Shown in pieces: positions 1 through 9,275 of a DNA stretch of 9,275 bases. A program made the translations under genes and the position numbers. This stretch comes from a virus (taxonomy: Duplodnaviria; Heunggongvirae; Uroviricota; Caudoviricetes). The stretch lies in IMG/VR virus record IMGVR_UViG_2671181100_000005. One strand, 5' to 3'. How positions within the stretch are numbered: the first letter of the stretch is position 1; each line of letters begins with the position of its first letter. Under the pieces are notes generated by a model that searched no databases, was not told the origin of the DNA, and saw only the letters and a list, made by a program, of their open reading frames with translations.

Positions 1-90
1 GGTCATGGCCTCCATAGTGATGGCGGGTCCTCCTTGTGGGGTGCCCTGCCACGGGGCGGGAGCATCGCGGAAAAAGGCTAGTTTTTGCAT
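1..90 (-). CDS. 5' end of an unidentified ORF running off the left edge
   Basis: Minus-strand frame is open from ATG at 90..88 (MQKLAFFRDAPAPWQGTPQGGPAITMEAMT...) to position 1. An alternative ATG at 15..13 is preceded by AAGGAGGA. No similarity to lambda gpA N-terminus by eye. Confidence 0.2.
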   Translation of the reverse strand, partial: MQKLAFFRDAPAPWQGTPQGGPAITMEAMT

Positions 91-251
91 TTTTATTCGT
101 CATCACCACCAATGCAATATATTGATATGACTTGATGTTTTATTTTTCGGTGTCGATTTCGATTGTTTTTTGTTCATCACTGACGCATAACGCCCACCAG
201 CGCAACGCTGAAAGCCAGTCAGTAAACTGGCTTCGGTCATTGTGCACTACG

Positions 252-794
252 TTACTTGTCTTTATCCGGCTGAAACTTATCAGGCACATTTCCGGTAGTT
301 TCCATCAGATAATCGGACAGCATTCGCGGGATGTTTTCATCAAGTTTTGTGCATGCGTTACAGGCTCTGACAACTTCTTTTTTCAGGCCATCCAGCATGG
401 CGGGGGTCATCTGTGGGAAGCTCCTTTGCATAGTAAGCGGCAGGCTGCCCATGATTGAAGAAATCTGACTCGCCAGTTTTGAAAGCGCATATATACAAAA
501 TTCCGTACTAATCACATCGCCGCGTTCGCGCTCGTTTTTAAGCTCCTGCGCCTCCGCCTGCGCTGTCAGCAATCTGATCCTGACTCGCAAAAGCTCATCA
601 TTATCAATCTCGCCTTTGTCGTCTGTAATCTGGTTAATTGCATTGCTAACCCGATTGTCTATTACGCTGGCAACATCATAAAACGCCTCGCGGCCTTTAC
701 GTTCAACGGGAGTCACTCCCCACTTGTCGAACGCTGTCGCACTTACACGGCAGCTTTGCGCCATGTTTTTTTTGTTCATCAGGTGCGATTTCAT
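252..794 (-). CDS. Terminase small subunit, lambda Nu1-like
   Basis: ORF-track protein matches my recollection of lambda Nu1 across the length, e.g. LLTAQAEAQELKNERERGDVISTEFCIYALSKLASQISSIMGSLPLTMQRSFP versus Nu1 LTRAQADAQELKNARDSAEVVETAFCTFVLSRIAGEIASILDGLPLSVQRRFP, and C-terminal LDENIPRMLSDYLMETTG versus LDELIPGLLSEYIEQSG. Start chosen at ATG 794..792 (GGGGA 6 nt upstream); ATG at 779 is an alternative. Lies directly downstream of the cos site, as in lambda. Confidence 0.85.
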   Translation of the reverse strand: MKSHLMNKKNMAQSCRVSATAFDKWGVTPVERKGREAFYDVASVIDNRVSNAINQITDDKGEIDNDELLRVRIRLLTAQAEAQELKNERERGDVISTEFCIYALSKLASQISSIMGSLPLTMQRSFPQMTPAMLDGLKKEVVRACNACTKLDENIPRMLSDYLMETTGNVPDKFQPDKDK

Positions 795-799
795 CAATA

Positions 800-990
800 T
801 CCCCACTTAAGTAATGTTTCAGGTTGGTGTATTGGCTTTATCTTTTCCTTTTTATTCATAGAGATAGAGCGAACAACAAAACCACCACCAGCACCCGAAA
901 AAGGCTCATAAATAGCGAAAACCCGCGAGGTCGCCGCCCCGTAGCCTACCGGATCGCCGGAAAGGACCCGCCAGCCAGAACGGGCCCTAA
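800..990 (-). other. Lambda-type cos site: cosN 12-nt cohesive end at 928..939 (complement), cosQ-like at about 945..985, divergent cosB-like at about 800..927
   Basis: Reverse complement of 907..940 reads GGGCGGCGACCTCGCGGGTTTTCGCTATTTATGA, identical to the first 34 nt of lambda as I remember them, then diverges. Reverse complement of 941..973 reads GGCGGGTCCTTTCCGGCGATCCGGTAGGCTACG, close to the lambda right end (GACGGGTCCTTTCCGGTGATCCGACAGGTTACG). Confidence 0.75.
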
Positions 991-995
991 TTTCA

Positions 996-1379
996 TCAAC
1001 CAATCAACTTATAGCGACCATCCCGTGCATTGCGACGTACACGCTCAATCTTGAGGCATAGCGCCGCATCTGGCTTTTTTGGGACAGGTACGCGGCAATA
1101 TTCAGAAGCTCGAGGAATATTGTTTATCCAGTCGATCACTTCACTTAAATACCAGGCCTTACGCCCTTCCGTAACCTGTACGCGTTCGGGGAACTCTCCG
1201 CGAGCCTCAAGGTTTAGCAATGTGCGACGGCTAAGGGTAGTAAGTTCCATCACCTGATTCATATCAACAAGGCGTTCACTTAAACGCATTTTGTCAGCAA
1301 TAGCCTTTAATTCCTCTACTGCTGGATCCGGATACATCATTTCGGCAATTGGCTTAAGGTCATTGTAATGATTCTGCAT
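996..1379 (-). CDS. AlpA-family HTH DNA-binding protein, second copy, with N- and C-terminal extensions
   Basis: Core MELTTLSRRTLLNLEARGEFPERVQVTEGRKAWYLSEVIDWINN resembles Phage_AlpA-type HTH proteins. ATG at 1379 is preceded by AAGGGGGA. Starts 11 nt after the D-like gene stop and ends next to cosQ. Confidence 0.7.
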   Translation of the reverse strand: MQNHYNDLKPIAEMMYPDPAVEELKAIADKMRLSERLVDMNQVMELTTLSRRTLLNLEARGEFPERVQVTEGRKAWYLSEVIDWINNIPRASEYCRVPVPKKPDAALCLKIERVRRNARDGRYKLIG

Positions 1380-1390
1380 TGTATCCCCCT

Positions 1391-1732
1391 TTACACACGA
1401 GCCAGCGGCTGAACAGAAATACCTGAGCCAACAAACGCGGCAACCTTTGCCGACAGTTCTTTTACAGACTCAGGCCAGTTCAGAGCATCAACATTTAAAA
1501 CACCTGTCTTATAAACCTGTGCCTGTGTTTTTTTCGCTGTGTCGATTTGTACAGCGGAAACATAAACCGCTTTGCCTGCGCTCGTTCCATCCCATACCAC
1601 TAGCGCACCAGTTGCATCTTCCTGCATCAGTGGCGTAAACGCAGGTATTACCCCTTTATTGGCTGAAAATATCCCCAGCGTAGTAACCAGTGCTTCAGTG
1701 CCAGACATGAGTTCAGTGTAATGAGTAGCCAT
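1391..1732 (-). CDS. Head decoration protein, lambda gpD-like
   Basis: PAFTPLMQEDATGALVVWDGTSAGKAVYVSAV and YKTGVLNVDALNWPESVKELSAKVAAFVGSGISV parallel lambda gpD [32 protein letters not shown] and [35 protein letters not shown] (from memory). 113 aa versus 110 aa for gpD. RBS GGGGGAG precedes the ATG. Confidence 0.85.
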   Translation of the reverse strand: MATHYTELMSGTEALVTTLGIFSANKGVIPAFTPLMQEDATGALVVWDGTSAGKAVYVSAVQIDTAKKTQAQVYKTGVLNVDALNWPESVKELSAKVAAFVGSGISVQPLARV

Positions 1733-1741
1733 TGCTCCCCC

Positions 1742-2788
1742 TTAGCCAATGCGAACGGTAACAAAACGATTGATGCGGGCCGGTATTGGCTGTGGTGCTG
1801 AATGTGTCTGCACATATTCAATAGCCGGATCACCAGGCACAATATAGTTTTTCGGTGCAAGTTCGGCTTTAGTCAGCCCCATCCGGATTAGCTCCGGATC
1901 CTGAATACCGCCATAAGCGACAATCCCCTGAAGAGCCGTATTGCCAAGCACCATCAAATCAGGATCAAGGAAATATTTTTCAGTTCCGTCCTCGTCGGTA
2001 TAACGCCCGCTGTAAACAACAATCGCAACATCGCCCATATACCCTTTAAAACTCACCGAATCACCAAGGTCTTTAAGGGCCGTTTCCAGTTCGGAATTAG
2101 AACCACGACGAGTATCCAGAGCCTCTTTTATCGCCCTGAATGAACGGTATTTCTTCCATACATTACCGCCCATAATGATAATATTAGTGACGCCCTCACT
2201 AAATTCTGCGTAGCTCTCAATATCATCATTTGGATCAAAAGCTTCTTTATCCTTACCTGACCACTCAGCACCGCCAGACTGAGTGATGATATTTTGTGGT
2301 TTAATATTCCAGTCCAGCTCATAACGTTCAATACCATCGCCCTCAATGATATTTTTCCCCGTTGTGATTGCCTGAACGGCAAGCCATTCAATACGTGCAC
2401 GAATAGCTTTAGCCTGATTTACAATCGCCTGTTTAACTTTAATATTACGCGCTCCAAAAGCATTGTATTGCTCAGGTGATACACCAGCAGGGCGCACAGC
2501 TAACTTATTTGGATCAATGCTGCTTTTCGGTTTCATATAGCCAGGGCGAATTGTTTTTGATTCGTATCCCTCATCTCGTGAAACTTTACTGCCCACCATA
2601 GGAGAGCAAAACGCCGCGATCGGGATATTTGGATCGTCGATCGTATCAAGAATAATGTCTCTCGATTCAAACATTACCGAGCGAGTGAAAAACAAACTGG
2701 TAAACAACGCATTTAATTTTTTTTGCACATCTTCAGCATTAGCCACCTGCACAAGCTGTGTAGGCGAATATAAGTCAACCATACTCAT
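1742..2788 (-). CDS. Major capsid protein, lambda gpE family
   Basis: Long collinear similarity to lambda gpE as I recall it: NIITQSGGAEWSGKDKEAFDPNDDIESYA, DTRRGSNSELETALKDLGDSVSFKGYMGDVAIVVYSG, MVLGNT, PGDPAIEY. Start set at the MSM motif (ATG 2788, or 2782 with AAAGAGG 6 nt upstream), like lambda E's MSM start. The longer track ORF (start 2869) is probably an upstream extension. Confidence 0.9.
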   Translation of the reverse strand: MSMVDLYSPTQLVQVANAEDVQKKLNALFTSLFFTRSVMFESRDIILDTIDDPNIPIAAFCSPMVGSKVSRDEGYESKTIRPGYMKPKSSIDPNKLAVRPAGVSPEQYNAFGARNIKVKQAIVNQAKAIRARIEWLAVQAITTGKNIIEGDGIERYELDWNIKPQNIITQSGGAEWSGKDKEAFDPNDDIESYAEFSEGVTNIIIMGGNVWKKYRSFRAIKEALDTRRGSNSELETALKDLGDSVSFKGYMGDVAIVVYSGRYTDEDGTEKYFLDPDLMVLGNTALQGIVAYGGIQDPELIRMGLTKAELAPKNYIVPGDPAIEYVQTHSAPQPIPARINRFVTVRIG

Positions 2789-2953
2789 CCTCTTTACATT
2801 CATTACAAATAATTGTGAATATATTCTATTACCGATGTCTGCTATGCGAATACATGCAACCAAGTGCAATGTTGTATAAAATATGCCGTGACAACTTCAG
2901 TGCTGATAATTCGTGTTAATGTATTTACTTCCTTTGGTCGGGATTTATGTAGC

Positions 2954-2993
2954 ATGCCGGAAAATCTATTTTTTTCCGGCATCTTTTTGTTTG
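2954..2993 (+). terminator. Perfect 11-bp inverted repeat stem-loop followed by a T-tract (candidate intrinsic terminator, plus-strand orientation)
   Basis: ATGCCGGAAAA (2954..2964), 7-nt loop, TTTTCCGGCAT (2972..2982), then CTTTTTGTTTG. Lies just downstream of the ssb stop on the opposite strand; on the minus strand the U-tract is absent, so the orientation and role are uncertain. Confidence 0.4.
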
Positions 2994-2999
2994 CAGAAT

Positions 3000-3422
3000 T
3001 TAAAACGGTATATTATCGCCGTACGGATCATCATTCCCCGACTGTTGTTTTGCCCTGTTCAGTGCGTCAGTGGCCTGCCCCTGCTGGCCTTTTTTGCCGC
3101 CCGGTCGCGCTGTTCGCGCACTGATCACGCTGTCTGCGATAACCTGCCAGCCCTGCCGCGTTTCGCCGTTCTGGCCTGTCCACTGGCTTACCTGCATGTT
3201 ACCCGCCACGCTCACCAGTTCGCCTTTGTGGTGTTTTGCCAGTGCGTCGGCCTGTCTGCCAAACGCCAGGACGGATAACCACATCATCGCCGTTCCGTCA
3301 TCTGCCTGGCTGCACGGAAGGGGGACCGCCATACTAGCCATCGCCATTTGTGTACCCTTGCTGGTGGTCTTTAACTGCGGATCAGCCACCAGCCGTCCGT
3401 AAGCCGCTATCTGTGCTGTCAT
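3000..3422 (-). CDS. ssb: Single-stranded DNA-binding protein (SSB)
   Basis: OB-fold-like N-terminal region (YGRLVADPQL..., WLSVLAFGRQADALAKHHKGELVSVAGNMQVSQWTGQNGETRQGWQVIADSV) parallels E. coli SSB. Gly/Gln-rich linker and acidic C-terminal tail ...DDPYGDNIPF match the SSB signature ...DDDIPF. Start ATG overlaps the upstream ORF stop (ATGA). Confidence 0.85.
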   Translation of the reverse strand: MTAQIAAYGRLVADPQLKTTSKGTQMAMASMAVPLPCSQADDGTAMMWLSVLAFGRQADALAKHHKGELVSVAGNMQVSQWTGQNGETRQGWQVIADSVISARTARPGGKKGQQGQATDALNRAKQQSGNDDPYGDNIPF

Positions 3423-3664
3423 GCTGTCTGCTCTCCGGTTTTAACGTTGATGGTTGTCACCTGTTCCGCTTCGGCAATCTCCCGTTCTGTCAGCGTGGCA
3501 AAGTTTGCAGCTGCCGTTGTCATGAATGCGCTAATCAGTTCGGGATGTGCTTTCGCATATCCTTCCCCGGCGTTGCGGTCGATGATTTTTATCGACACCC
3601 TTAACCAGTGTTCCGTCAAATCAAGGGCGTGCGATTGTGATTTTTTTATGTGCTTCGCTGTCAT
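3419..3664 (-). CDS. Hypothetical protein (81 aa), translationally coupled to ssb
   Basis: ORF stop overlaps the ssb start in an ATGA arrangement. RBS is weak (GAGA) and there is no recognisable motif. The competing plus-strand ORF in the same region looks non-protein-like. Confidence 0.4.
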   Translation of the reverse strand: MTAKHIKKSQSHALDLTEHWLRVSIKIIDRNAGEGYAKAHPELISAFMTTAAANFATLTEREIAEAEQVTTINVKTGEQTA

Positions 3665-3708
3665 AGGCTTTATCTCACAGCAGTAAATTAAAATTTTTGC
3701 GTTTTAAC

Positions 3709-3905
3709 CCTTCACCTGTTCACCTTTTGATATTTTATCTTTTAATTCATAATGTTAAGGGGTGAACAGTTTCACAAAAACTATTCACCAACTGTTCACC
3801 ACTGTTCACNNNNNNNNNNNNNNNNNNNNNNNNNNNNNNNNNNNNNNNNNNNNNNNNNNNNNNNNNNNNNNNNNNNNNNNNNNNNNGTGAACAGTGGTGA
3901 ACAGT
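3709..3905. repeat. Iteron array of octamer TGTTCACC / GGTGAACA (P4 ori/crr-type), candidate replication origin
   Basis: Exact octamers at 3717..3724 and 3793..3800 (TGTTCACC) and 3761..3768 and 3896..3903 (GGTGAACA). Gap-truncated copies at 3803..3809 and 3887..3893, plus degenerate copies (3709..3716, 3783..3789). Sits immediately downstream of the primase-helicase gene. Confidence 0.6.
3810..3886. other. Run of 77 N (unresolved or masked sequence) inside the iteron region
   Basis: Directly visible in the sequence. Flanked by a perfect 19-nt inverted repeat (3791..3809 ACTGTTCACCACTGTTCAC; 3887..3905 GTGAACAGTGGTGAACAGT). Confidence 0.95.
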
Positions 3906-3917
3906 TATTCCATAAGT

Positions 3918-5735
3918 TTAATTTTTGCTATCGTCATTAGTGACCGATACACATGATGGCATCCAGTCTTCTGATTCCTCCGTCAGTGTCACGTTTGAAC
4001 GCAAACCGTGCTTCGTTTTCCGTTTCATATACTCCCTGCCATATTCCGCCATTGCCCCCGGCATATCTTTACCGAAGCGCGTCAGTGTTACAGGTTTACC
4101 AAACCCATGTGCCTTCATATAAGCCAGATAGGCATGATAGAGATACCTGCGCGGGCTGAATGGCACAATTTCAGCATTACCCACTAACAGGCCATCACAC
4201 ATTACCGACGCCATGAGATAGCCGCAGAAGTCCACCAGCGAATCACCTTCACGCTTTATCGCGAGTGCTTCTTCTGATTTCTGCTGCTCATATAAAAGGC
4301 GTCTGGCTTCGTCCTGGTCAGCAAACCGTGTAAGCAGATGACGAATCACTACCGCCAGCTCACCTTCTATTTTTTCCGCCAGCATTGAATCGCGTTCGTT
4401 CTCCGGTACAACTTCCGAAAAATTGAATATCACCCGACGTCGCGAGATCCCCCCACTGCGGTCACTGAATGACATAGCGTTATTGTTAACCGCCAGCACT
4501 ACTGCCGGGATACGCGTTGAATATGGGGCTTTATGTTTTGGGTCGATTGCCACCTTGTCACCGCCTGTAATAGCCTTAATTCCCGCCCCATCACCAGCGT
4601 AGCGGGTCATATCCGGCATGATAATCAGCGAAAAGCCAACCACTAACGCGCGTTCCCTTGCATCTTCCAGCGCCTTCATGCTCGCTGATACTGTATTAGC
4701 CTTACCCGCCAGCATGGTGCAAATCTCCGCCATCACGCTTTTACCACTTCCCCCTGGACCTGTTACCTCAATGAATAACTGCCAGTCGTACCGGTTCGCC
4801 AGCACCATGAATAATGCAGCCAGTACGCGATCCGCCTTGCGGTCATTCTCAGCCACCGAACGGCGTAACCACTTCCAGAAATTCGGCGCATGTGTTGCCA
4901 GCGTTTCCCCCTCTGCTGGTGGGCTGAAAGGTAATTCACTGGCAATTAACAACCAGTCGTTTTTGTTATGCTCCCGAAAATTACCTGTTCTGGTATCAAA
5001 TACCCCGTTACTGAATCCAATCAGGTTACGGGCTGTATTCCCCATAACAGGCAAACTTAACTTCATGGTATCGACCGCCGATTTAATGGCGTTCTGCGAA
5101 TAGCTGATCTCCGCATCAATGAAAATCTGTGCCATAGCTCGCTGTAATTCTTTATCCTGTACTGGCTCCCATACAACGCCGTTGTAATGGTGAACAGTGT
5201 CAGAGTCAGCATGAATCGCCAGTTCACCGCCATAATGTGCCAGGAGAACTTCGCCGCGTTGACTTGCTCCCATCTGGTTAAGCGCCAGTGATGAAGCGTT
5301 ATCGTCTTTTACCCGCTCTTTTTTCTTTACAGGCAGTTCAACTACCTTTTTCTTTTCCGCCTGCTCTGCCCGTTCACGTTCCAGATATTCGCGCCAGTTC
5401 TCCCGTTTCTGGCTGTGCATTCCTTCAGGGTAATAATCAGCATCCCTGACACCTGCCGCTGCCAGTTTCTGCCCGATGGTATTAACAAGCCCCGGACGCA
5501 ATAACCCCGCCTGGTAGAGACGCACGCGATAGCGTCCGTCCGGTACGATTTGCAGGTTGTCCAGTTCGGCAAGTTGTTGCTCTCCAAGCCAGACAGGTGG
5601 CACGTTATCGCCAGCCAGTCGCCCGTCCTGTTCCTGCCACTGCTTCGCATGTGCCCACGCATCACTACCCGCAAAAATGATGACTTCCGTCATTTTGTCA
5701 CGCGGCTGGTGTTTTAAATTTGGCGCTTTTTTCAT
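3918..5735 (-). CDS. Replication protein: primase-like N-terminal region fused to an SF3 (D5 / P4 alpha-type) helicase
   Basis: Walker A motif VTGPGGSGKS with a downstream hydrophobic-acidic Walker B-like stretch. Size and position match a satellite pri/alpha gene, followed by its iterons. Start set at ATG 5735, which overlaps the upstream ORF stop (ATGA); the track ORF starts 15 nt further upstream at 5750. Confidence 0.88.
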   Translation of the reverse strand: MKKAPNLKHQPRDKMTEVIIFAGSDAWAHAKQWQEQDGRLAGDNVPPVWLGEQQLAELDNLQIVPDGRYRVRLYQAGLLRPGLVNTIGQKLAAAGVRDADYYPEGMHSQKRENWREYLERERAEQAEKKKVVELPVKKKERVKDDNASSLALNQMGASQRGEVLLAHYGGELAIHADSDTVHHYNGVVWEPVQDKELQRAMAQIFIDAEISYSQNAIKSAVDTMKLSLPVMGNTARNLIGFSNGVFDTRTGNFREHNKNDWLLIASELPFSPPAEGETLATHAPNFWKWLRRSVAENDRKADRVLAALFMVLANRYDWQLFIEVTGPGGSGKSVMAEICTMLAGKANTVSASMKALEDARERALVVGFSLIIMPDMTRYAGDGAGIKAITGGDKVAIDPKHKAPYSTRIPAVVLAVNNNAMSFSDRSGGISRRRVIFNFSEVVPENERDSMLAEKIEGELAVVIRHLLTRFADQDEARRLLYEQQKSEEALAIKREGDSLVDFCGYLMASVMCDGLLVGNAEIVPFSPRRYLYHAYLAYMKAHGFGKPVTLTRFGKDMPGAMAEYGREYMKRKTKHGLRSNVTLTEESEDWMPSCVSVTNDDSKN

Positions 5736-6031
5736 TTCTGCTCTCTCCACGCGGCAATCATGTTTTTCAGTTCCTGTAGTTTTTTATCCACATCCACACG
5801 TGACACATGGTTATTTCTGGAAGTCGGGATTTCCCGCCGGAATCTGCAAATAAAGATCTCCACGTTCAGCGAACTAAGAAATGAATAGCCATCACGGATA
5901 AAATACACACGGTCAAACATCAGTTCTTTTACCGTTACTCTATTACCGTTCTTATCCAGATAAATAGCGCCGGGGATAATTTGGGGGTGTGCATAACCGC
6001 TGGCAGTCAAGCCAGATAAATACGTTCTCAT
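5732..6031 (-). CDS. Hypothetical protein (99 aa), coupled to the primase gene
   Basis: Stop overlaps the primase start (ATGA). GGGGA lies about 9 nt upstream of its ATG. No recognisable motif. Confidence 0.55.
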   Translation of the reverse strand: MRTYLSGLTASGYAHPQIIPGAIYLDKNGNRVTVKELMFDRVYFIRDGYSFLSSLNVEIFICRFRREIPTSRNNHVSRVDVDKKLQELKNMIAAWREQK

Positions 6032-6037
6032 GATTAT

Positions 6038-6358
6038 TTATCCCCGATTTGAATCAGTATTCGCTTTCTTTATAGCATTTAATGCATCTGTGGCATTTTT
6101 AATGGTGCACCGTAACGAAATATCAAAATGTCCAAGCATTGCCAGTAACAAACCGATATTACCCATATCAATGCGCATGGCCTTTTCGTCATAGTCCTCA
6201 TTTTCTGACGCATGCCACATCAGGCTACCAATTGACGCAACAGCCATTGATATATTGTCAGTAGCCCCATCCGCAGCGGAATAAACCTTTTTAGCAATAT
6301 CATGCTCACAGTTAAAATGCGGATTAATCAGGTACTGGTAATTTGACATATCAGGCAT
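6038..6358 (-). CDS. Hypothetical protein (106 aa)
   Basis: ATG at 6358 overlaps the stop of the upstream 67-aa ORF (ATGCCTGA). RBS AGGGGG is present. Stop lies 6 nt before the next ORF. No recognisable motif. Confidence 0.55.
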   Translation of the reverse strand: MPDMSNYQYLINPHFNCEHDIAKKVYSAADGATDNISMAVASIGSLMWHASENEDYDEKAMRIDMGNIGLLLAMLGHFDISLRCTIKNATDALNAIKKANTDSNRG

Positions 6359-6554
6359 GGCACACCCCCTGACGAATACGGGCGGCGAATACCATCACGC
6401 AGCCAGCCGGGGATTGCTGGCGTGCTTCCTGTTCGCTGGTGGCCACGATGTGAATCACGCGCGGTTGTGCGGTGCTCAGGGCGATAAAACGCCAGATGTA
6501 TTTATTCAGGTTGTACGAGTCCCGCCCTTGCGGGTGTATGGTATGATTTCTCAT
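6351..6554 (-). CDS. Hypothetical protein (67 aa), first gene of the minus-strand operon leading into the primase
   Basis: This is the last 67 codons of the 348-aa track ORF, starting at ATG 6554 with GAGG 5 nt upstream. The upstream part of that ORF is low-complexity and antisense to a better plus-strand gene. Confidence 0.45.
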   Translation of the reverse strand: MRNHTIHPQGRDSYNLNKYIWRFIALSTAQPRVIHIVATSEQEARQQSPAGCVMVFAARIRQGVCHA

Positions 6555-6697
6555 AGCTGCCTCGATAATCTTGCTATCGTTGGTGGTTAGAAGCCCCGTT
6601 ACTGCTCCTACAGTGCGGGGTTTCGTCGTTTCTGCACCTTGCATTAACAAGGTGTAAGCAACTTTATTTATAGGTGGCTTACATGTCAATGCTTTTA

Positions 6698-6729
6698 TGT
6701 AAGACTTTTTATGTGTATATTGTCTTACA
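6698..6729. promoter_or_regulatory. 8-bp inverted repeat (TGTAAGAC ... GTCTTACA) in the divergent promoter region; candidate operator
   Basis: TGTAAGAC at 6698..6705 and GTCTTACA at 6722..6729, 16 bp apart, overlapping a TATATT -10-like hexamer (6716..6721) about 30 bp upstream of the 6751 start. Confidence 0.35.
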
Positions 6730-6750
6730 CTTTCATTGAGAGGATTACAG

Positions 6751-7056
6751 ATGGCTACAGGTTCAAAAAACGCAAAATCACAATCACTGACAGCTCGGAT
6801 CCCGCATGATGTTATTGAAGGCATGGAATCCGTAAAACTGGACGGTGAAAGCAACGCCGGATTCATAGTAACCGCCATGCGCGGTGAAATCGCCCGCCGC
6901 CAGGCAGAAGGAAGCGGAGAAAACCTCCTGGTTTCTTCGCTCGATGCCCTAGCGCAGGTGGAAAAAATCGGAGTCAAAGCCGCCGAGGAGATCGGGCAAC
7001 TCGTCACCGTCGCGCGTGAAGAACTCCAGCGACGCAAGGTCAAAGAGCAGGAATAG
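6751..7056 (+). CDS. Small DNA-binding-like protein, possible ribbon-helix-helix regulator (101 aa)
   Basis: ATG at 6751 with GAGAGGA 7 nt upstream. N-terminal SLTARIPHDVIEGMESV resembles RHH (CopG/Arc-like) beta-strand-helix starts; the C-terminus is predicted helical and charged. Divergent from the minus-strand operon. Confidence 0.5.
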   Translation: MATGSKNAKSQSLTARIPHDVIEGMESVKLDGESNAGFIVTAMRGEIARRQAEGSGENLLVSSLDALAQVEKIGVKAAEEIGQLVTVAREELQRRKVKEQE

Positions 7057-7113
7057 CCACTATCAGCGCCATAGTTTGAGGAACGCAGGCGCATTGCTTT
7101 ACAGGACAGCACC

Positions 7114-7293
7114 ATGAGCGACACAGAATCAACCAAAACACCATCACCAACTCGTAAGAGACGACGCAAAAATATAGCGCATGAACATGAATCAGAAAGA
7201 TTCGCACCTTGTTCGTTTGCTCTTGAGAAATTCCTTAAAGAGCACAGGAAAAAGCTCTCGTTGCAAACCTTGGAACGAACCAAATCTGACTGA
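7114..7293 (+). CDS. Small basic protein (59 aa), hypothetical
   Basis: Hand-translated ORF MSDTESTKTPSPTRKRRRKNIAHEHESERFAPCSFALEKFLKEHRKKLSLQTLERTKSD, below the track's 60-aa cutoff. AGGA lies 7 nt upstream. Followed by a strong terminator hairpin. Confidence 0.35.
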   Translation: MSDTESTKTPSPTRKRRRKNIAHEHESERFAPCSFALEKFLKEHRKKLSLQTLERTKSD

Positions 7294-7358
7294 TCACATT
7301 GCCCACCAGCCGCAAATGTGGCATTGTTGGTGATGCGTTCAAGTTTAGTGTGTATCCA

Positions 7359-7386
7359 TTGGCGACCGCCCCCGGTCGCCTTTGTT
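7359..7386 (+). terminator. Rho-independent terminator (plus strand), between convergent genes
   Basis: GGCGACCG (7359..7366), loop CCCC, CGGTCGCC (7371..7378), then TTTGTTTT. Confidence 0.6.
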
Positions 7387-7407
7387 TTATATGTCATATG
7401 CTCCCCT

Positions 7408-7617
7408 TTACGCTGCCTTACCTGAATTAATGCGATCCCGGCTTTTAACCCATTCCATAACCTCGGACAGCAGCCAACCTACAGAACGCCCACCAAGATT
7501 ACGGCGAGACGGAAAGCTCCCTTTTTTCTCCAGTTCGTAGCGTGTAGTGCGACACACTCCAGTTAACTTACGACATTCATCCTCACGGATTACGCGATCT
7601 TCATTTATTTCACGCAT
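7408..7617 (-). CDS. alpA: AlpA-family phage regulatory protein (transcriptional activator / excision regulator)
   Basis: RVIREDECRKLTGVCRTTRYELEKKGSFPSRRNLGGRSVGWLLSEVMEWV is a typical AlpA HTH. Start set at the internal Met (MREINED..., 70 aa, the usual AlpA size). The track ORF extends to 7704 through an AT-rich stretch that looks more like promoter than coding sequence. Confidence 0.8.
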   Translation of the reverse strand: MREINEDRVIREDECRKLTGVCRTTRYELEKKGSFPSRRNLGGRSVGWLLSEVMEWVKSRDRINSGKAA

Positions 7618-7997
7618 ACAAAAACCTACATAAAAATTACGTATATAAACTTTTCTCTTAGCTGTAGATATATGAGATCGGATATTACTTAGATTCTTTT
7701 TCACCTATTAAATTAAAAACACAACCATGCTAAAGGCTTTGTTCGCTAAGGTTCGTAGAAGCTCGTTAGTGTTTAAAATCGTGTCACGAGTTTTTAAGCG
7801 ACGCAACAAAAAATGTCGTCATTTGGCATGACACCTGAATTACCTCATTAAAAACAAATAGATAAACCATCAGATGTTGGAACAATCAAGAAACAGAGAA
7901 TAAGAACTCAGAAGAAGACATTTCAATTTTTTTCGATAGTTGACACATATAAAGAGAAGATATTTGCAGATATTCCCCGATATTCTAAGATCTATTC

Positions 7998-8030
7998 ACG
8001 GCTGTAATCTCTTAAAGAAAAAACAGCCGT
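7998..8030 (-). terminator. Hairpin just downstream of the integrase stop (weak terminator candidate)
   Basis: ACGGCTGT (7998..8005) and ACAGCCGT (8023..8030) form an 8-bp stem with a 17-nt A/T-rich loop. There is no clear U-tract after the stem on the minus strand. Confidence 0.25.
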
Positions 8031-8036
8031 AATTTG

Positions 8037-9275
8037 TCAAGAATTTTGGGGGTAAATTCGCGGGGTCATAACAACGATTTTTTCATCATTGTTCTGGAGA
8101 AGCTCGAGACGGTCTACCCATAGATTAAGAGCATCACGTTTTGCATCAAGGTAGCGGGAGTGGTTATAGACTCGTTGCATCCCTGGCATCTGGTGGGCTG
8201 TAAGCTGCTCGACAATATGCGGATCCACGCCTAAATCGTTCAGCATGGTTGTAAATGTGTGCCGGATATCGTGTAACGTCCAGGGGGCTTGATTAATTCG
8301 TCTGTGCGCTGTTCTTCCGTACTCTGCTACCGAAGATTGTCCTTTCAGTTCACCAAGCAATAAGCCTGTGTGTCTGTTCTGCTCCACCAGTTGCGTGACG
8401 AACGGCAAAATGCTTTCCGGTATTGGCCTGAATATGGCGACCTTCGTTTTGCTGTGCTCCTTCGGTACTGTCCAGAGCATTTCTTTAAAATCCCACTCCT
8501 GCACCTCAGAGCGCCTTAGCTCAGTGGTACGGCATCCAAAAACAATCAGGAGGCGAATTAGGGCGCTGTAGTATGGCGGGAATATTTTGTCATCCAGGGC
8601 GCGGAGTAATTCCCCAAGCTCCTTATTTGTTAGTACGCGCTCGCTCACTTCTGCTTTTTTTCCCACATCACCGACAACCATATCATCAAGAACGTTGCTG
8701 ATTGCGTATCGTCGTTTTCGGCAGTACTTAAGCGCCTGTTTGCATACCTGTAGCAAAAATCCGGCAGATACTGGGCTTCGCTTTGCCATCTGGTCAAAAC
8801 ATGCCAACCAGTGCCGTAGCTCGCATTTTTCCAACGGCAAAGCGCCAATCTGGCTGATTATGTGTTTATTGATCCGGCTTTTCAGTGATTCGTAGTCAGT
8901 GCGCTTTTCCTTTGCATACGATTCAAGCCAGTAAGTGAGCGCTTCCTTAACTGTCACGGGGGCTAACGCATCCTGTACAGCACGATTAAGCTCATAGCGC
9001 GGATTTTTCCCCTCAGCCAGCCAGGCGCGACACTGTGCTGCTTTTTCCCTGGCTGCTTTCAGACTCAGATCGGGATAATTGCCCAGTCTCAGACGTTCCG
9101 GTGATACCTGCCTACCAGTTCCGGCCCTGTAAGTGAAATACCAGGTTAACAGGCCGCTGGTGGAATGTCTTACGCTAAGATTGCCACCGTCATTAAAAAA
9201 GGCGTTTTTTGTGGTTGGTGATCCGCTTAATTTTCGTAAAAGAGTGTCGCTAAGTCTATGAATTGCGCTGCTCAT
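8037..9275 (-). CDS. int: Tyrosine recombinase / integrase, P4-type
   Basis: N-terminal arm-type region (NDGGNLSVRHSTSGLLTWYFTYRAGTGRQ... YPDLSLKAAREKA) is typical of P4-family integrases. C-terminal catalytic motifs HDIRHTFTTMLNDLG and RVYNHSRY are present. The ATG sits exactly at the window edge (9275). Confidence 0.92.
   Translation of the reverse strand: MSSAIHRLSDTLLRKLSGSPTTKNAFFNDGGNLSVRHSTSGLLTWYFTYRAGTGRQVSPERLRLGNYPDLSLKAAREKAAQCRAWLAEGKNPRYELNRAVQDALAPVTVKEALTYWLESYAKEKRTDYESLKSRINKHIISQIGALPLEKCELRHWLACFDQMAKRSPVSAGFLLQVCKQALKYCRKRRYAISNVLDDMVVGDVGKKAEVSERVLTNKELGELLRALDDKIFPPYYSALIRLLIVFGCRTTELRRSEVQEWDFKEMLWTVPKEHSKTKVAIFRPIPESILPFVTQLVEQNRHTGLLLGELKGQSSVAEYGRTAHRRINQAPWTLHDIRHTFTTMLNDLGVDPHIVEQLTAHQMPGMQRVYNHSRYLDAKRDALNLWVDRLELLQNNDEKIVVMTPRIYPQNS

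What the first reader, a model, noticed from the sequence alone, without database searches (positions are those of the whole stretch)
1..9275. Mosaic satellite: P4-type integration/replication module joined to a lambda-type cos/Nu1/E/D module
The right half carries a P4-family integrase, AlpA, a primase-helicase and TGTTCACC iterons. The left half carries a lambda-like cos site, a Nu1-like small terminase and E-like and D-like capsid genes, but in a non-lambda order (E, D, HTH gene, cos, Nu1) and with no gpA, W, B, C or Nu3 between them. That pattern fits a satellite that keeps only the determinants of packaging specificity and capsid shell while taking the remaining functions from a lambdoid helper. 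Whether this exact arrangement has been described I cannot tell from the sequence alone.
Basis: partly seen in the sequence, partly recalled or inferred. Interest (0 to 1): 0.7.

Follow-up and report, generated by a model that had tools for sequence, protein, structure and literature searches.

The report
Known E. coli phage satellite (PICI)
This is an ordinary member of a described family of small E. coli chromosomal islands (PICIs) that ride lambda-like phages; its only open point is that it carries its own full-length small terminase instead of the studied Rpp adaptor protein.

Summary
The window is about 90% of a 10.5-kb island between clpS and cspD of E. coli, bounded by the 11-bp repeat ATGATAGTTAT. 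It has no large terminase, portal, protease or tail genes.

This is not a newly seen P4/lambda mosaic. It is the standard layout of Gram-negative cos-type phage-inducible chromosomal islands (Fillol-Salom 2018; de Sousa 2023). The published EcCIIHE3034 uses the same att site, a 97% identical int-alpA end and the same gene order, including a 180-aa small terminase after cos. The studied EcCICFT073 has RppA in that slot.

What differs here:
- The E/D genes are a second lineage, 54% identical in protein to the reference islands.
- An AlpA-type gene replaces a 137-aa protein before cos.
- There is one cos site instead of two.

The small terminase (TerS) has an N15-like DNA-binding domain facing an N15-like R3 site, joined to a C-terminal half found only in these islands. 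All four late genes are under purifying selection.

The likely mechanism is inferred, not shown: the island's TerS binds the island's cosB and recruits a lambdoid helper's large terminase.

Verdict: new member of a known kind, modest interest.

The parts
252..794 (-). Island small terminase (TerS, Nu1 family), 180 aa. N15-type winged-HTH DNA-binding domain, short linker, and a C-terminal half specific to these islands that keeps the ...LDENIP..LSDYL end motif.
   Evidence: Pfam Phage_Nu1 1.2e-21 over the C-terminal half only; PHROG_57 1.9e-50 full length. 35-37% identical to lambda Nu1, 46% to N15 gp1, 82% to the EcCIIHE3034 TerS. No similarity to RppA. dN/dS 0.18-0.20. AF2 model shows a wHTH plus long helices, pLDDT 74.
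796..972 (-). cos site. cosQ at about 969-959; 12-nt cohesive end GGGCGGCGACCT at 939-928; lambda-identical flank to 906. cosB: R3-equivalent GGTGGTGGTTTTGTTGTT at 889-872, an A/T-rich spacer, an inverted R2-like CAATACACCAACC at 833-821, and a degenerate R1-like site at 808-796.
   Evidence: Direct reading against lambda, EcCIIHE3034, EcCICFT073 and N15. The cosB block is conserved in all five islands with this TerS type and absent from islands with Rpp or a lambda-type Nu1. This island has a single cos. The R2-like and R1-like assignments are my inference.
996..1379 (-). Second AlpA-family HTH protein, 127 aa, in the slot between D and cos. Function unknown; probably a DNA-binding regulator.
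   Evidence: Pfam Phage_AlpA 1.4e-8; PHROG_2790 1.8e-48. PDB 8c3t AlpA-family protein 1.6e-10. 32% identical to the island's other AlpA. Unrelated to the 137-aa protein in the same slot of EcCICFT073 and EcCIIHE3034. dN/dS 0.06-0.17.
1391..1732 (-). Head-decoration protein homologue (lambda D family), 113 aa.
   Evidence: Pfam HDPD 2.3e-15; PHROG_49. 39% identical to lambda D and 54% to the D of the reference PICIs. dN/dS 0.06-0.10.
1742..2782 (-). Major capsid protein homologue (lambda E family), 346 aa.
   Evidence: Pfam Phage_cap_E 6.3e-41; PHROG_29 4e-91. 42% identical to lambda E and 54-55% to the EcCIIHE3034 and EcCICFT073 MCPs. dN/dS 0.06-0.08.
3000..3422 (-). Single-stranded DNA-binding protein, 140 aa.
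   Evidence: Pfam SSB 1.7e-15. Same position in the reference PICIs.
3419..3664 (-). Conserved 81-aa protein of unknown function (PHROG_1231).
   Evidence: Annotated in the identical genome.
3716..3905 (.). Replication origin: CTGTTCACC iterons in both orientations in AT-rich DNA, immediately 3' of the primase gene. Includes the N mask at 3810-3886.
   Evidence: Nine perfect copies in the unmasked homologue against 0.12 expected for the whole locus. The position matches the functional ori of Gram-negative PICIs.
3918..5735 (-). Primase-helicase (Pri-Rep), D5_N/DUF5906/Pox_D5 type, P4-family primase C-terminal domain.
5732..6031 (-). DUF4222 protein, conserved just upstream of the replication gene in these islands.
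6038..6358 (-). 106-aa protein of unknown function (PHROG_15327).
6351..6554 (-). Icd-like host cell-division inhibitor homologue, 67 aa.
   Evidence: NCBIfam NF033153 5.3e-20. Annotation.
6751..7056 (+). YlcI/YnfO-family protein; the only gene on the plus strand.
   Evidence: NCBIfam NF041551 4.7e-20. Annotation.
7408..7617 (-). AlpA regulator. RefSeq protein accession identical to that of EcCIIHE3034.
   Evidence: Pfam 3.8e-16. WP_001206975.1 appears in both annotations.
8037..9275 (-). Tyrosine integrase, 412 aa. The att core ATGATAGTTAT lies outside the window, about 175 bp to the right of its end and about 980 bp to the left of its start.
   Evidence: Pfam. att repeats at L001 11009-11019 and 21483-21493 against 0.01 expected. 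Same att core as published for EcCIIHE3034.

Best explanation
The window is most of a Gram-negative, cos-type phage-inducible chromosomal island (PICI) of E. coli. It is integrated at the cspD-clpS att site used by the published EcCIIHE3034.

**Identity (shown).** The island is 10.5 kb, flanked by att repeats, and has the five PICI core modules and no other virion genes.

**Life cycle (inferred from characterised relatives).**
1. A lambdoid helper phage triggers AlpA-driven expression of the leftward operon.
2. The integrase excises the island.
3. The Pri-Rep protein, with SSB, replicates it from the CTGTTCACC iteron origin into concatemers.

**Packaging (inferred from anatomy).**
1. The island's own full-length TerS binds the island-specific cosB through its N15-type winged-HTH domain. 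The R3-equivalent GGTGGTGGTT sits at bp 51-60 from the nick.
2. Its Nu1-like C-terminal domain recruits the helper's large terminase.
3. The large terminase nicks the lambda-identical cosN and uses cosQ to terminate.
4. This directs packaging to island DNA and competes with the helper's own TerS for TerL.
5. Unlike Rpp-type islands, it should not need the helper's TerS.
6. Four 10.5-kb units (42 kb) fit a lambda-size head.

**Capsid genes.** The E/D pair and the second AlpA-type protein are maintained by selection, but their role is not known. The most likely role is modifying or interfering with helper capsid assembly.
For: **Identity**
- 100% identity to E. coli chromosomes; 81 of 5426 complete genomes carry at least 80% of the window.
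- The island is bounded by the 11-bp repeat ATGATAGTTAT, which is the att core published for EcCIIHE3034.
- EcCIIHE3034 has the same gene order with a 180-aa TerS after cos. Nucleotide identity is 97% for the int-alpA end and 86% for TerS plus cos.
- All five PICI core components of de Sousa 2023 are present.
- No TerL, portal, protease or tail genes.

**Packaging logic**
- cosQ and cosN match lambda.
- cosB type co-varies with the specificity protein across islands. This TerS type goes with the GGTGGTGG...ACACCAACC cosB in 5 of 5 islands. A lambda-type Nu1 goes with lambda R sites. Rpp goes with a third cosB.
- The TerS DNA-binding domain is about 65% identical to that of N15 gp1 (my count from the alignment). 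Its R3-equivalent matches the N15 R3 position and 8 of 10 bases.
- The C-terminal end motif LDExIP..L..Y is shared with lambda and N15.
- Rpp lacks this C-terminal part and needs the phage TerS.

**Selection and helper type**
- dN/dS is 0.06-0.20 for MCP, D, HTH and TerS.
- The same E/D/HTH module (95% nt) occurs in a PICI embedded in the E gene of a lambda-like prophage.
- Helper-dependent induction, replication and cos packaging were shown experimentally for the relative EcCICFT073.
Against: - Nothing about this island has been tested experimentally, and no helper has been identified.
- The C-terminal half of its TerS is under 60% identical to any phage TerS in the INPHARED collection. For comparison, the whole protein is 35-46% identical to lambda Nu1 and N15 gp1. 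Small differences are known to change TerS-TerL pairing (lambda versus phage 21; background knowledge). Binding to a lambda-type TerL is therefore unproven.
- In a helper-embedded relative, the island TerS keeps the helper's DNA-binding domain but has a different C-terminal half. This does not fit a simple model of new DNA specificity with the same TerL contact.
- The fold search gave only weak, non-significant MerR-type wHTH matches.
- In EcCICFT073, deleting the E or D homologue did not restore phage plaque formation, and PICI capsid genes are reported as not required for helper-assisted transfer.
Confidence: 0.8

Rival explanations
1. The island is a PICI, but its TerS does not act as an autonomous small terminase. 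Like Rpp, it works by co-assembling with the helper's TerS through the conserved central self-association region. It poisons phage cos recognition and borrows the helper TerS subunits to reach TerL.
For: The best-conserved stretch between island and phage TerS is the central RL..AQA.AQELKN...FC...LS...PL..QR.FP region, not the extreme C-terminus. The C-terminal half is a lineage confined to these islands, under 60% identical to any catalogued phage TerS. Rpp-type relatives use hetero-complexes with the phage TerS.
Against: A full-length C-terminal domain with the LDExIP..L..Y end is kept under purifying selection. Rpp proteins, which rely on the phage TerS, have lost that part.
Confidence: 0.25
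2. The island builds its own, possibly smaller, capsid shell from its E and D proteins. It uses the helper's portal, protease/scaffold and tails, making it an intermediate between classical PICIs and capsid-forming PICIs.
For: E and D are full length and under strong purifying selection (dN/dS 0.06-0.10). They form lineages distinct from phage E and D, at 42% and 39% identity. In other islands the slot after D holds a protein weakly similar to the C-terminal end of the head protease/scaffold family.
Against: In EcCICFT073, deleting the capsid or decoration gene did not restore phage plaque formation, and the island was packaged in full-size heads. PICI capsid genes are reported as not required for transfer. 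This island has no portal, protease or scaffold gene.
Confidence: 0.12
3. It is a decaying remnant of a lambdoid prophage, or a P4-like satellite, and not a PICI.
For: It has lambda-family cos, Nu1, E and D genes, and its integrase and primase belong to families also found in P4.
Against: The same compact architecture recurs at four or more different att sites. All genes are intact and under purifying selection. The TerS, E and D genes are 35-46% identical to phage versions and so are not recent remnants. No sid, psu, delta or epsilon gene was found, and cos is lambda-type.
Confidence: 0.03

Closest known systems
EcCIIHE3034 (E. coli IHE3034; Fillol-Salom et al. 2018, Table S1)
   Same: Same att core and site (cspD-clpS). 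The int-alpA end is 97% identical in nucleotides, and AlpA has the same protein accession. Same gene order, and the same TerS/cosB type (82% aa, 86% nt).
   Different: E and D are only 54% identical in protein. The primase is a different allele. The slot before cos holds a 137-aa protein instead of an AlpA-type HTH. EcCIIHE3034 has a second, inverted cos after terS, whereas this island has one cos.
EcCICFT073 (prototype Gram-negative cos PICI; RppA mechanism, Fillol-Salom 2018 and 2019)
   Same: Overall architecture: int, alpA, Icd-like, DUF4222, primase, ori, SSB, E, D, X, cos, specificity gene, 93-94-aa gene. cosQ and cosN are lambda-like and cosB is not lambda-like.
   Different: The slot after cos holds RppA (144 aa, no TerL-binding tail, needs the phage TerS) instead of a 180-aa full-length TerS; the two show no detectable similarity. 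cosB differs and the att site differs (ycfD-phoQ).
Helper-embedded PICI, 11capE type (Williams lab 2023); example L008
   Same: Same E/D/AlpA-HTH module at 95% nucleotide identity, and a single cos.
   Different: It is integrated in the E gene of a lambda-like prophage. Its TerS has a lambda-identical N-terminal 105 aa and a lambda-type cosB, but a different cohesive-end sequence.
Phage N15 terminase small subunit gp1 and cosB-N15
   Same: Closest phage TerS at 46% overall and about 65% in the DNA-binding domain. An R3-like GGT(T/G)GT(T/G)GTT element sits at the same distance from the nick.
   Different: N15 is a complete phage with a TerL next to gp1. Its cohesive end differs (GGGCGGCGTCCG). 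The C-terminal half of gp1 is lambda-like, unlike the island's.
SaPI1/SaPI2-type TerS strategy (Gram-positive pac PICIs)
   Same: In concept, a satellite-encoded TerS replaces the phage TerS on the phage TerL to redirect packaging (described).
   Different: Those systems use pac/headful packaging and an unrelated TerS family, with a separate Ppi interference protein. Here the system is cos-based.
Satellite phage P4 and P4-like elements
   Same: Integrase family with an Arm-DNA-bind_3 domain, an AlpA-type regulator, a P4-family primase C-terminal domain, and dependence on a helper's virion genes.
   Different: No sid, psu, delta or epsilon. cos is lambda-type and not P2-type. The island carries E, D and TerS homologues that P4 lacks.
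Capsid-forming PICIs (cf-PICIs, e.g. EcCIEDL933)
   Same: PICI-type int, alpA and primase modules, plus satellite-encoded capsid and TerS genes.
   Different: cf-PICIs also encode HNH, TerL, portal, protease and head-tail connectors. None of these is present here.

Membership tests
Gram-negative PICI (Fillol-Salom 2018; de Sousa 2023 SatelliteFinder model) | Integrase at one end; island of about 8-15 kb flanked by att direct repeats at a specific chromosomal site | tested here: met
   int at 8037-9275. The 11-bp repeats ATGATAGTTAT lie 10,485 bp apart, between clpS and cspD. This is the same att core as the published EcCIIHE3034.
Gram-negative PICI (Fillol-Salom 2018; de Sousa 2023 SatelliteFinder model) | AlpA, MerR or Stl-type regulator next to the integrase | tested here: met
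   AlpA at 7408-7617, Pfam 3.8e-16.
Gram-negative PICI (Fillol-Salom 2018; de Sousa 2023 SatelliteFinder model) | Primase-replicase gene followed by an iteron origin | tested here: met
   D5/P4-type primase at 3918-5735. CTGTTCACC iterons lie immediately 3' of it. Origin function itself was not tested.
Gram-negative PICI (Fillol-Salom 2018; de Sousa 2023 SatelliteFinder model) | Capsid-morphogenesis homologue and/or small terminase downstream of the replicon | tested here: met
   E, D and Nu1-family genes.
Gram-negative PICI (Fillol-Salom 2018; de Sousa 2023 SatelliteFinder model) | Absence of the other phage structural, TerL and lysis genes ('forbidden' components) | tested here: met
   The full island annotation and ORF list show none.
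Gram-negative PICI (Fillol-Salom 2018; de Sousa 2023 SatelliteFinder model) | Induction by a helper phage, high-frequency helper-mediated transfer, and interference with the helper | not testable with these tools
   Shown only for relatives such as EcCICFT073.
Rpp-type cos PICI (RppA/B/C mechanism) | Rpp protein (139-154 aa; wHTH plus dimerisation domain; no TerL-binding tail) encoded just after cos1 | tested here: not met
   The slot holds a 180-aa Nu1-family protein with no BLASTP similarity to RppA and 16% identity in alignment.
Lambda-type terminase small subunit (Nu1 family) | N-terminal winged-HTH DNA-binding domain | tested here: inconclusive
   The sequence aligns with the Nu1 and N15 gp1 DNA-binding domains. 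The AF2 model gives an a1-a2-hairpin-a3 topology. However, Pfam Nu1 matches only residues 68-151, phmmer finds no PDB Nu1 or Rpp hit, and Foldseek hits to MerR-type wHTH proteins have E of 0.18 or worse.
Lambda-type terminase small subunit (Nu1 family) | Central self-association region and a C-terminal TerL-binding region of about 40 aa | tested here: met
   Homology is continuous to the end of Nu1, with the LDExIP..L..Y motif conserved. Actual binding to TerL was not tested.
Lambda-type terminase small subunit (Nu1 family) | Gene located immediately downstream of cosN-cosB, with cognate R sites | tested here: met
   The ATG lies 146 bp from the nick. The R3-equivalent sits at bp 51-68 and is conserved with this TerS type only.
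P4-like satellite | sid, psu, delta and epsilon genes together with the alpha primase; P2-type cos | tested here: not met
   No such families were hit among the island proteins in Pfam, PHROGs or NCBIfam. cos is lambda-type.
Capsid-forming PICI (cf-PICI) | Own HNH, TerL, portal, protease and head-tail connector genes | tested here: not met
   Absent from the complete island.

The most novel reading that the evidence does not exclude
In E. coli the commonest packaging module of cos-type PICIs may not be the studied Rpp adaptor. It may be a complete, satellite-specific small terminase assembled from exchangeable parts. N15-like or lambda/phi80-like DNA-binding heads, each matched to its own cosB, are joined to C-terminal halves found only in these islands. 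If so, these TerS proteins would capture the helper's large terminase directly, would make the island independent of the helper's TerS, and would form a combinatorial specificity system among co-resident islands. The strongly conserved E/D pair would have a still undiscovered role.
Probability: 0.4. Interest if true: 0.5.

Novelty: new member of a known kind. Interest (0 to 1): 0.3.

Why it matters
As an element it is ordinary. It adds one more allele combination to a catalogued family of E. coli phage satellites.

The useful points are comparative:
- **Prevalence.** The TerS-plus-cosB module seen here is in about 14% of complete E. coli genomes (763-793 of 5426). The RppA/B module is in about 2%; RppC-type islands were not counted. 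Yet in the papers I could search, only the Rpp route has been dissected.
- **Testable pairing.** A cos-type satellite TerS with an N15-like head and a private C-terminal half offers a direct way to test how satellites compete for a helper's large terminase.
- **Open question.** The strong purifying selection on the island E and D genes sharpens the question of what these genes are for. They were found dispensable in the one system tested.

Tried and rejected
- **Small complete prophage.** Rejected. The flanks show only a 94-aa ORF before the att repeat and clpS.
- **Rpp homologue.** Neither the post-cos gene nor the pre-cos HTH is one. The HTH has no PDB hit to Rpp and is unrelated to the CFT073 slot protein.
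- **P4-like or cf-PICI membership.** The defining genes are absent.
- **PDB sequence search with TerS.** No Nu1 or Rpp match.
- **AF2 plus Foldseek.** Only weak MerR-type wHTH hits, so I do not rely on them.
- **Phage source for the C-terminal half of TerS, to name a helper.** The 194-aa proteins sharing that half turned out to be PICI-encoded as well. No phage in the INPHARED collection reaches 60% identity. The helper stays unidentified.
- **Rfam scans** (gathering threshold on the whole window; permissive on 6300-8100). No RNA family, including no C4-type RNA near the Icd-like gene.
- **PADLOC.** No defence genes.
- **Promoter and terminator scan.** Counts were at or below chance and were not used.
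- **Literature searches for EcCIIHE3034 and for other island names.** No functional study of the TerS-type islands turned up. The library lacks most subscription-journal papers, so absence is not proof.
- **Technical note.** An early scripting attempt failed because loci are stored several per file.

Full report
**1. What is in the window**

Six-frame ORFs and profile searches show that all genes but one lie on the minus strand. In order of transcription they are:

| Feature | Window coordinates |
|---|---|
| Tyrosine integrase with an Arm-DNA-bind_3 domain | 8037-9275 |
| AlpA regulator | 7408-7617 |
| YlcI/YnfO gene (divergent, plus strand) | 6751-7056 |
| Icd-like gene | 6351-6554 |
| 106-aa protein | 6038-6358 |
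| DUF4222 protein | 5732-6031 |
| D5/P4-type primase-helicase | 3918-5735 |
| AT-rich iteron region | 3716-3905 |
| 81-aa protein | 3419-3664 |
| SSB | 3000-3422 |
| Lambda-E-family major capsid protein | 1742-2782 |
| Lambda-D-family decoration protein | 1391-1732 |
| 127-aa AlpA-family HTH protein | 996-1379 |
| cos site | 972-796 |
| 180-aa Nu1-family small terminase (TerS) | 252-794 |

- The nonamer CTGTTCACC occurs 5 times in the window against 0.06 expected.
- Window 3810-3886 is an N mask. In the otherwise identical genome the masked stretch is 111 nt, and the origin there holds 9 perfect copies in both orientations within 225 bp.
- From the nick, 34 of 34 bp match lambda (GGGCGGCGACCTCGCGGGTTTTCGCTATTTATGA). 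cosQ is nearly identical to lambda's. Beyond that point the sequence is unrelated to lambda cosB.

**2. Boundaries**

- The window is 100% identical to several complete E. coli chromosomes, apart from the masked stretch. 81 of 5426 complete genomes carry at least 80% of it.
- In strain CFS3313 the island lies between clpS and yljB/cspD. To the left of the window there is only a 94-aa ORF.
- The 11-mer ATGATAGTTAT occurs exactly twice in the 33-kb locus, 10,485 bp apart and bracketing the island, against 0.01 expected.
- There is no large terminase, portal, protease, scaffold, tail or lysis gene.

**3. It is a known kind of element**

- Fillol-Salom et al. 2018 (PMC6092414) defined Gram-negative PICIs. 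Their Table S1 lists EcCIIHE3034: 10.5 kb, att core ATGATAGTTAT, site cspD-clpS.
- I fetched that island. It has the same order: int, AlpA (the same RefSeq protein), YlcI/YnfO, Icd-like, DUF4222, primase, SSB, capsid, decoration, one small gene, a 180-aa 'terminase small subunit', and a 93-aa gene.
- de Sousa et al. 2023 give integrase, regulator, primase-replicase, capsid-morphogenesis gene and small terminase as the five PICI core components. This island has all five.
- The prototype EcCICFT073 has the same architecture, except that the gene after cos is RppA (144 aa).
- The listed EcCIATCC25922 carries the TerS version. So does an O55:H7 CB9615 island at the ycfD-phoQ site, which the table lists for EcCIRM12579.

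The 'P4 module joined to lambda module' is thus the standard PICI layout and not a new fusion. P4's defining genes are absent.

**4. How this copy differs from the published ones**

Segment-wise BLAST against EcCIIHE3034 gave the following:

| Segment | Identity to EcCIIHE3034 |
|---|---|
| int, alpA and att end | 97% nt |
| SSB region | 89% nt |
| TerS plus cos | 86% nt (82% aa) |
| E and D | about 65% nt (54% aa; 42% and 39% to lambda E and D) |
| Primase | almost no alignment |

- The gene between D and cos is an AlpA-family HTH. PDB 8c3t matches at 1.6e-10, and it is 32% identical to the island's other AlpA. It is unrelated to the 137-aa protein in that slot in EcCICFT073 and EcCIIHE3034.
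- This E/D/HTH module is itself common. It is found in 395 of 5426 genomes at 80% coverage or more.
- One of those copies is a PICI embedded in the E gene of a lambda-like prophage. That is the 'helper-embedded' configuration described by Williams and colleagues.
- The reference islands have two inverted cos sites flanking the specificity gene (cos1 and cos2). This island has one.

**5. The small terminase and its site**

- The protein aligns with lambda Nu1 over its whole length at 35-37% identity. It shows no similarity to RppA.
- Its closest phage relative is N15 gp1, at 46%.
- By my count from the alignment, the first 50 residues (the winged-HTH DNA-binding domain) are about 65% identical to N15 gp1.
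- The element at the R3-equivalent position, bp 51-60 from the nick, reads GGTGGTGGTT. N15 has GGTTGTTGTT at bp 50-59. Murialdo and Feiss note that N15 cosB consists of an R3 only and that distance from cosN is critical.
- Across seven islands, cosB type follows the specificity protein:
  - All five with this TerS type share the GGTGGTGG...TCTATCT.TATGAAT...CAATACACCAACC block, whatever lies upstream.
  - An island with a lambda-type Nu1 (Pfam 6e-84) has lambda R3, R2 and R1.
  - An island with a lambda/phi80-like head has R sites of that architecture.
  - EcCICFT073, with Rpp, has a third sequence.
- This co-variation is the main evidence that the protein recognises the adjacent site.
- The C-terminal half keeps the Nu1 self-association region and the terminal LDExIP..L..Y motif. 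Otherwise it is a lineage found only in PICIs:
  - No phage in the INPHARED collection reaches 60% identity.
  - The 194-aa proteins that share it are encoded on other PICIs.
- An AF2 model (pLDDT 74) shows a helix-helix-hairpin-helix head followed by four long helices. Foldseek found only weak MerR-type wHTH matches, and phmmer found no PDB Nu1 or Rpp hit. The fold evidence is therefore inconclusive, and I rely on the alignments.

**6. Selection**

Nei-Gojobori estimates against homologues 80-99% identical gave these dN/dS values:

| Gene | dN/dS |
|---|---|
| Capsid gene (E family) | 0.06-0.08 |
| Decoration gene (D family) | 0.06-0.10 |
| HTH gene | 0.06-0.17 |
| TerS | 0.18-0.20 |

These are working genes, not prophage debris. 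That contrasts with the experimental finding in EcCICFT073. There, deleting the capsid or decoration homologue did not restore lambda plaque formation, and the island was packaged in full-size heads. PICI capsid genes are also reported as not required for helper-assisted transfer. Their role remains open.

**7. Most likely mechanism**

*Shown:* identity, boundaries, gene content, and site/protein co-variation.

*Inferred from characterised relatives:*
1. A lambdoid helper induces AlpA-dependent expression.
2. The integrase excises the island.
3. Pri-Rep and SSB replicate it from the iteron origin into concatemers.

*Inferred from anatomy:*
1. The island TerS binds the island cosB and brings the helper TerL to the lambda-identical cosN. 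This diverts packaging to the island and competes with the phage TerS.
2. Four units (41.9 kb, 86% of lambda) fit lambda's known packaging window. This agrees with the cos-skipping proposed for EcCICFT073.

The main rival is that the protein acts through mixed oligomers with the phage TerS, as Rpp does. The private C-terminal lineage favours that rival. So does the helper-embedded island, whose TerS keeps the helper's DNA-binding head but not its C-terminal half. Against it, a full C-terminal domain is retained here, whereas Rpp proteins have lost theirs.

**8. Novelty and score**

- The family, the architecture, the att site and the presence of terS homologues in some E. coli PICIs are all published. 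This copy is a new allele combination.
- A rough survey found this TerS-plus-cosB module in 763-793 of 5426 complete E. coli genomes. The RppA/B module was in 97-110. RppC-type islands were not counted.
- In the searchable literature I found no functional study of the TerS route. That library omits most subscription-journal papers.

Noticed in passing
window 3810-3886: A run of 77 N masks part of the replication origin. In the otherwise identical genome the stretch is 111 nt and contains three further complete CTGTTCACC iterons plus parts of two that straddle the mask edges (L001 15810-15920).
   Followed up: yes
window 889-872 versus L002 17607-17619 (EcCICFT073 cos1): At the R3-equivalent distance from the nick, TerS-type islands have GGTGGTGGTGG. 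The Rpp-type island has ACACCACCACCAC, which is the same triplet repeat in reverse complement. This suggests related recognition elements used in opposite orientation.
   Followed up: partly
proteins P0101-P0105, P0119, P0120 (loci L010-L018): Some 194-aa PICI TerS proteins join a lambda/phi80-like DNA-binding head and long linker to a C-terminal half nearly identical to this window's TerS or to the EcCIIHE3034 type. The crossover lies in the conserved AQA.AQELKN stretch. The cosB of the one island of this type that I read (L010, encoding P0101) is lambda-like (R3, R2, R1).
   Followed up: partly
L015/L017 versus L016/L018, about 5780-6805: The 1-kb cassette cos1-terS-cos2, bounded by inverted cos repeats of about 54 bp at 91% identity, occurs in both orientations at 99% identity in otherwise collinear islands at the phoQ site. 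In one form terS points against the E-D genes.
   Followed up: partly
L016 6690-6815 (cos2): The second, inverted cos of these islands is followed by a lambda-like R3 (…CCGTTCTTCTTC…), while cos1 carries the island-specific cosB. This may bear on the published open question of why some PICIs have two cos sites.
   Followed up: no
L008 7204-8000 and L019 5194-5990: In a PICI embedded in the E gene of a lambda-like prophage, the first 105 or so residues of the island TerS are virtually identical (one substitution) to the prophage's own Nu1, but the C-terminal 80 residues differ. The island's cohesive-end sequence (GGGCGTCAGGCG) also differs from the prophage's lambda-type GGGCGGCGACCT.
   Followed up: partly
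L002 17084-17497 (EcCICFT073 slot between D and cos): The 137-aa protein in this slot weakly matches the C-terminal end of the head-maturation protease family (PHROG_53, 1e-8). That is the Nu3/scaffold-like end. In the window the slot holds an AlpA-type HTH instead.
   Followed up: no
L007 15529-16929; L010 1922-3328: Islands with the same late module use a RepA/AAA_25 helicase in place of the D5-type primase. The replicon is therefore an exchangeable module in this family.
   Followed up: no
window 6351-7397 (minus strand): A 348-aa mechanical ORF overlaps the Icd-like gene and runs antisense to the YlcI/YnfO gene. It has no annotation in RefSeq, its sequence looks low-complexity, and it is probably not a gene.
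   Followed up: no
window 252-905 versus L002 17585-18094, surveyed in E. coli genomes: The TerS-plus-cosB module occurs in 763-793 of 5426 complete E. coli genomes, including ATCC 25922, Nissle, O55:H7 and O157:H7. The RppA/B module occurs in 97-110. RppC-type islands were not counted.
   Followed up: partly
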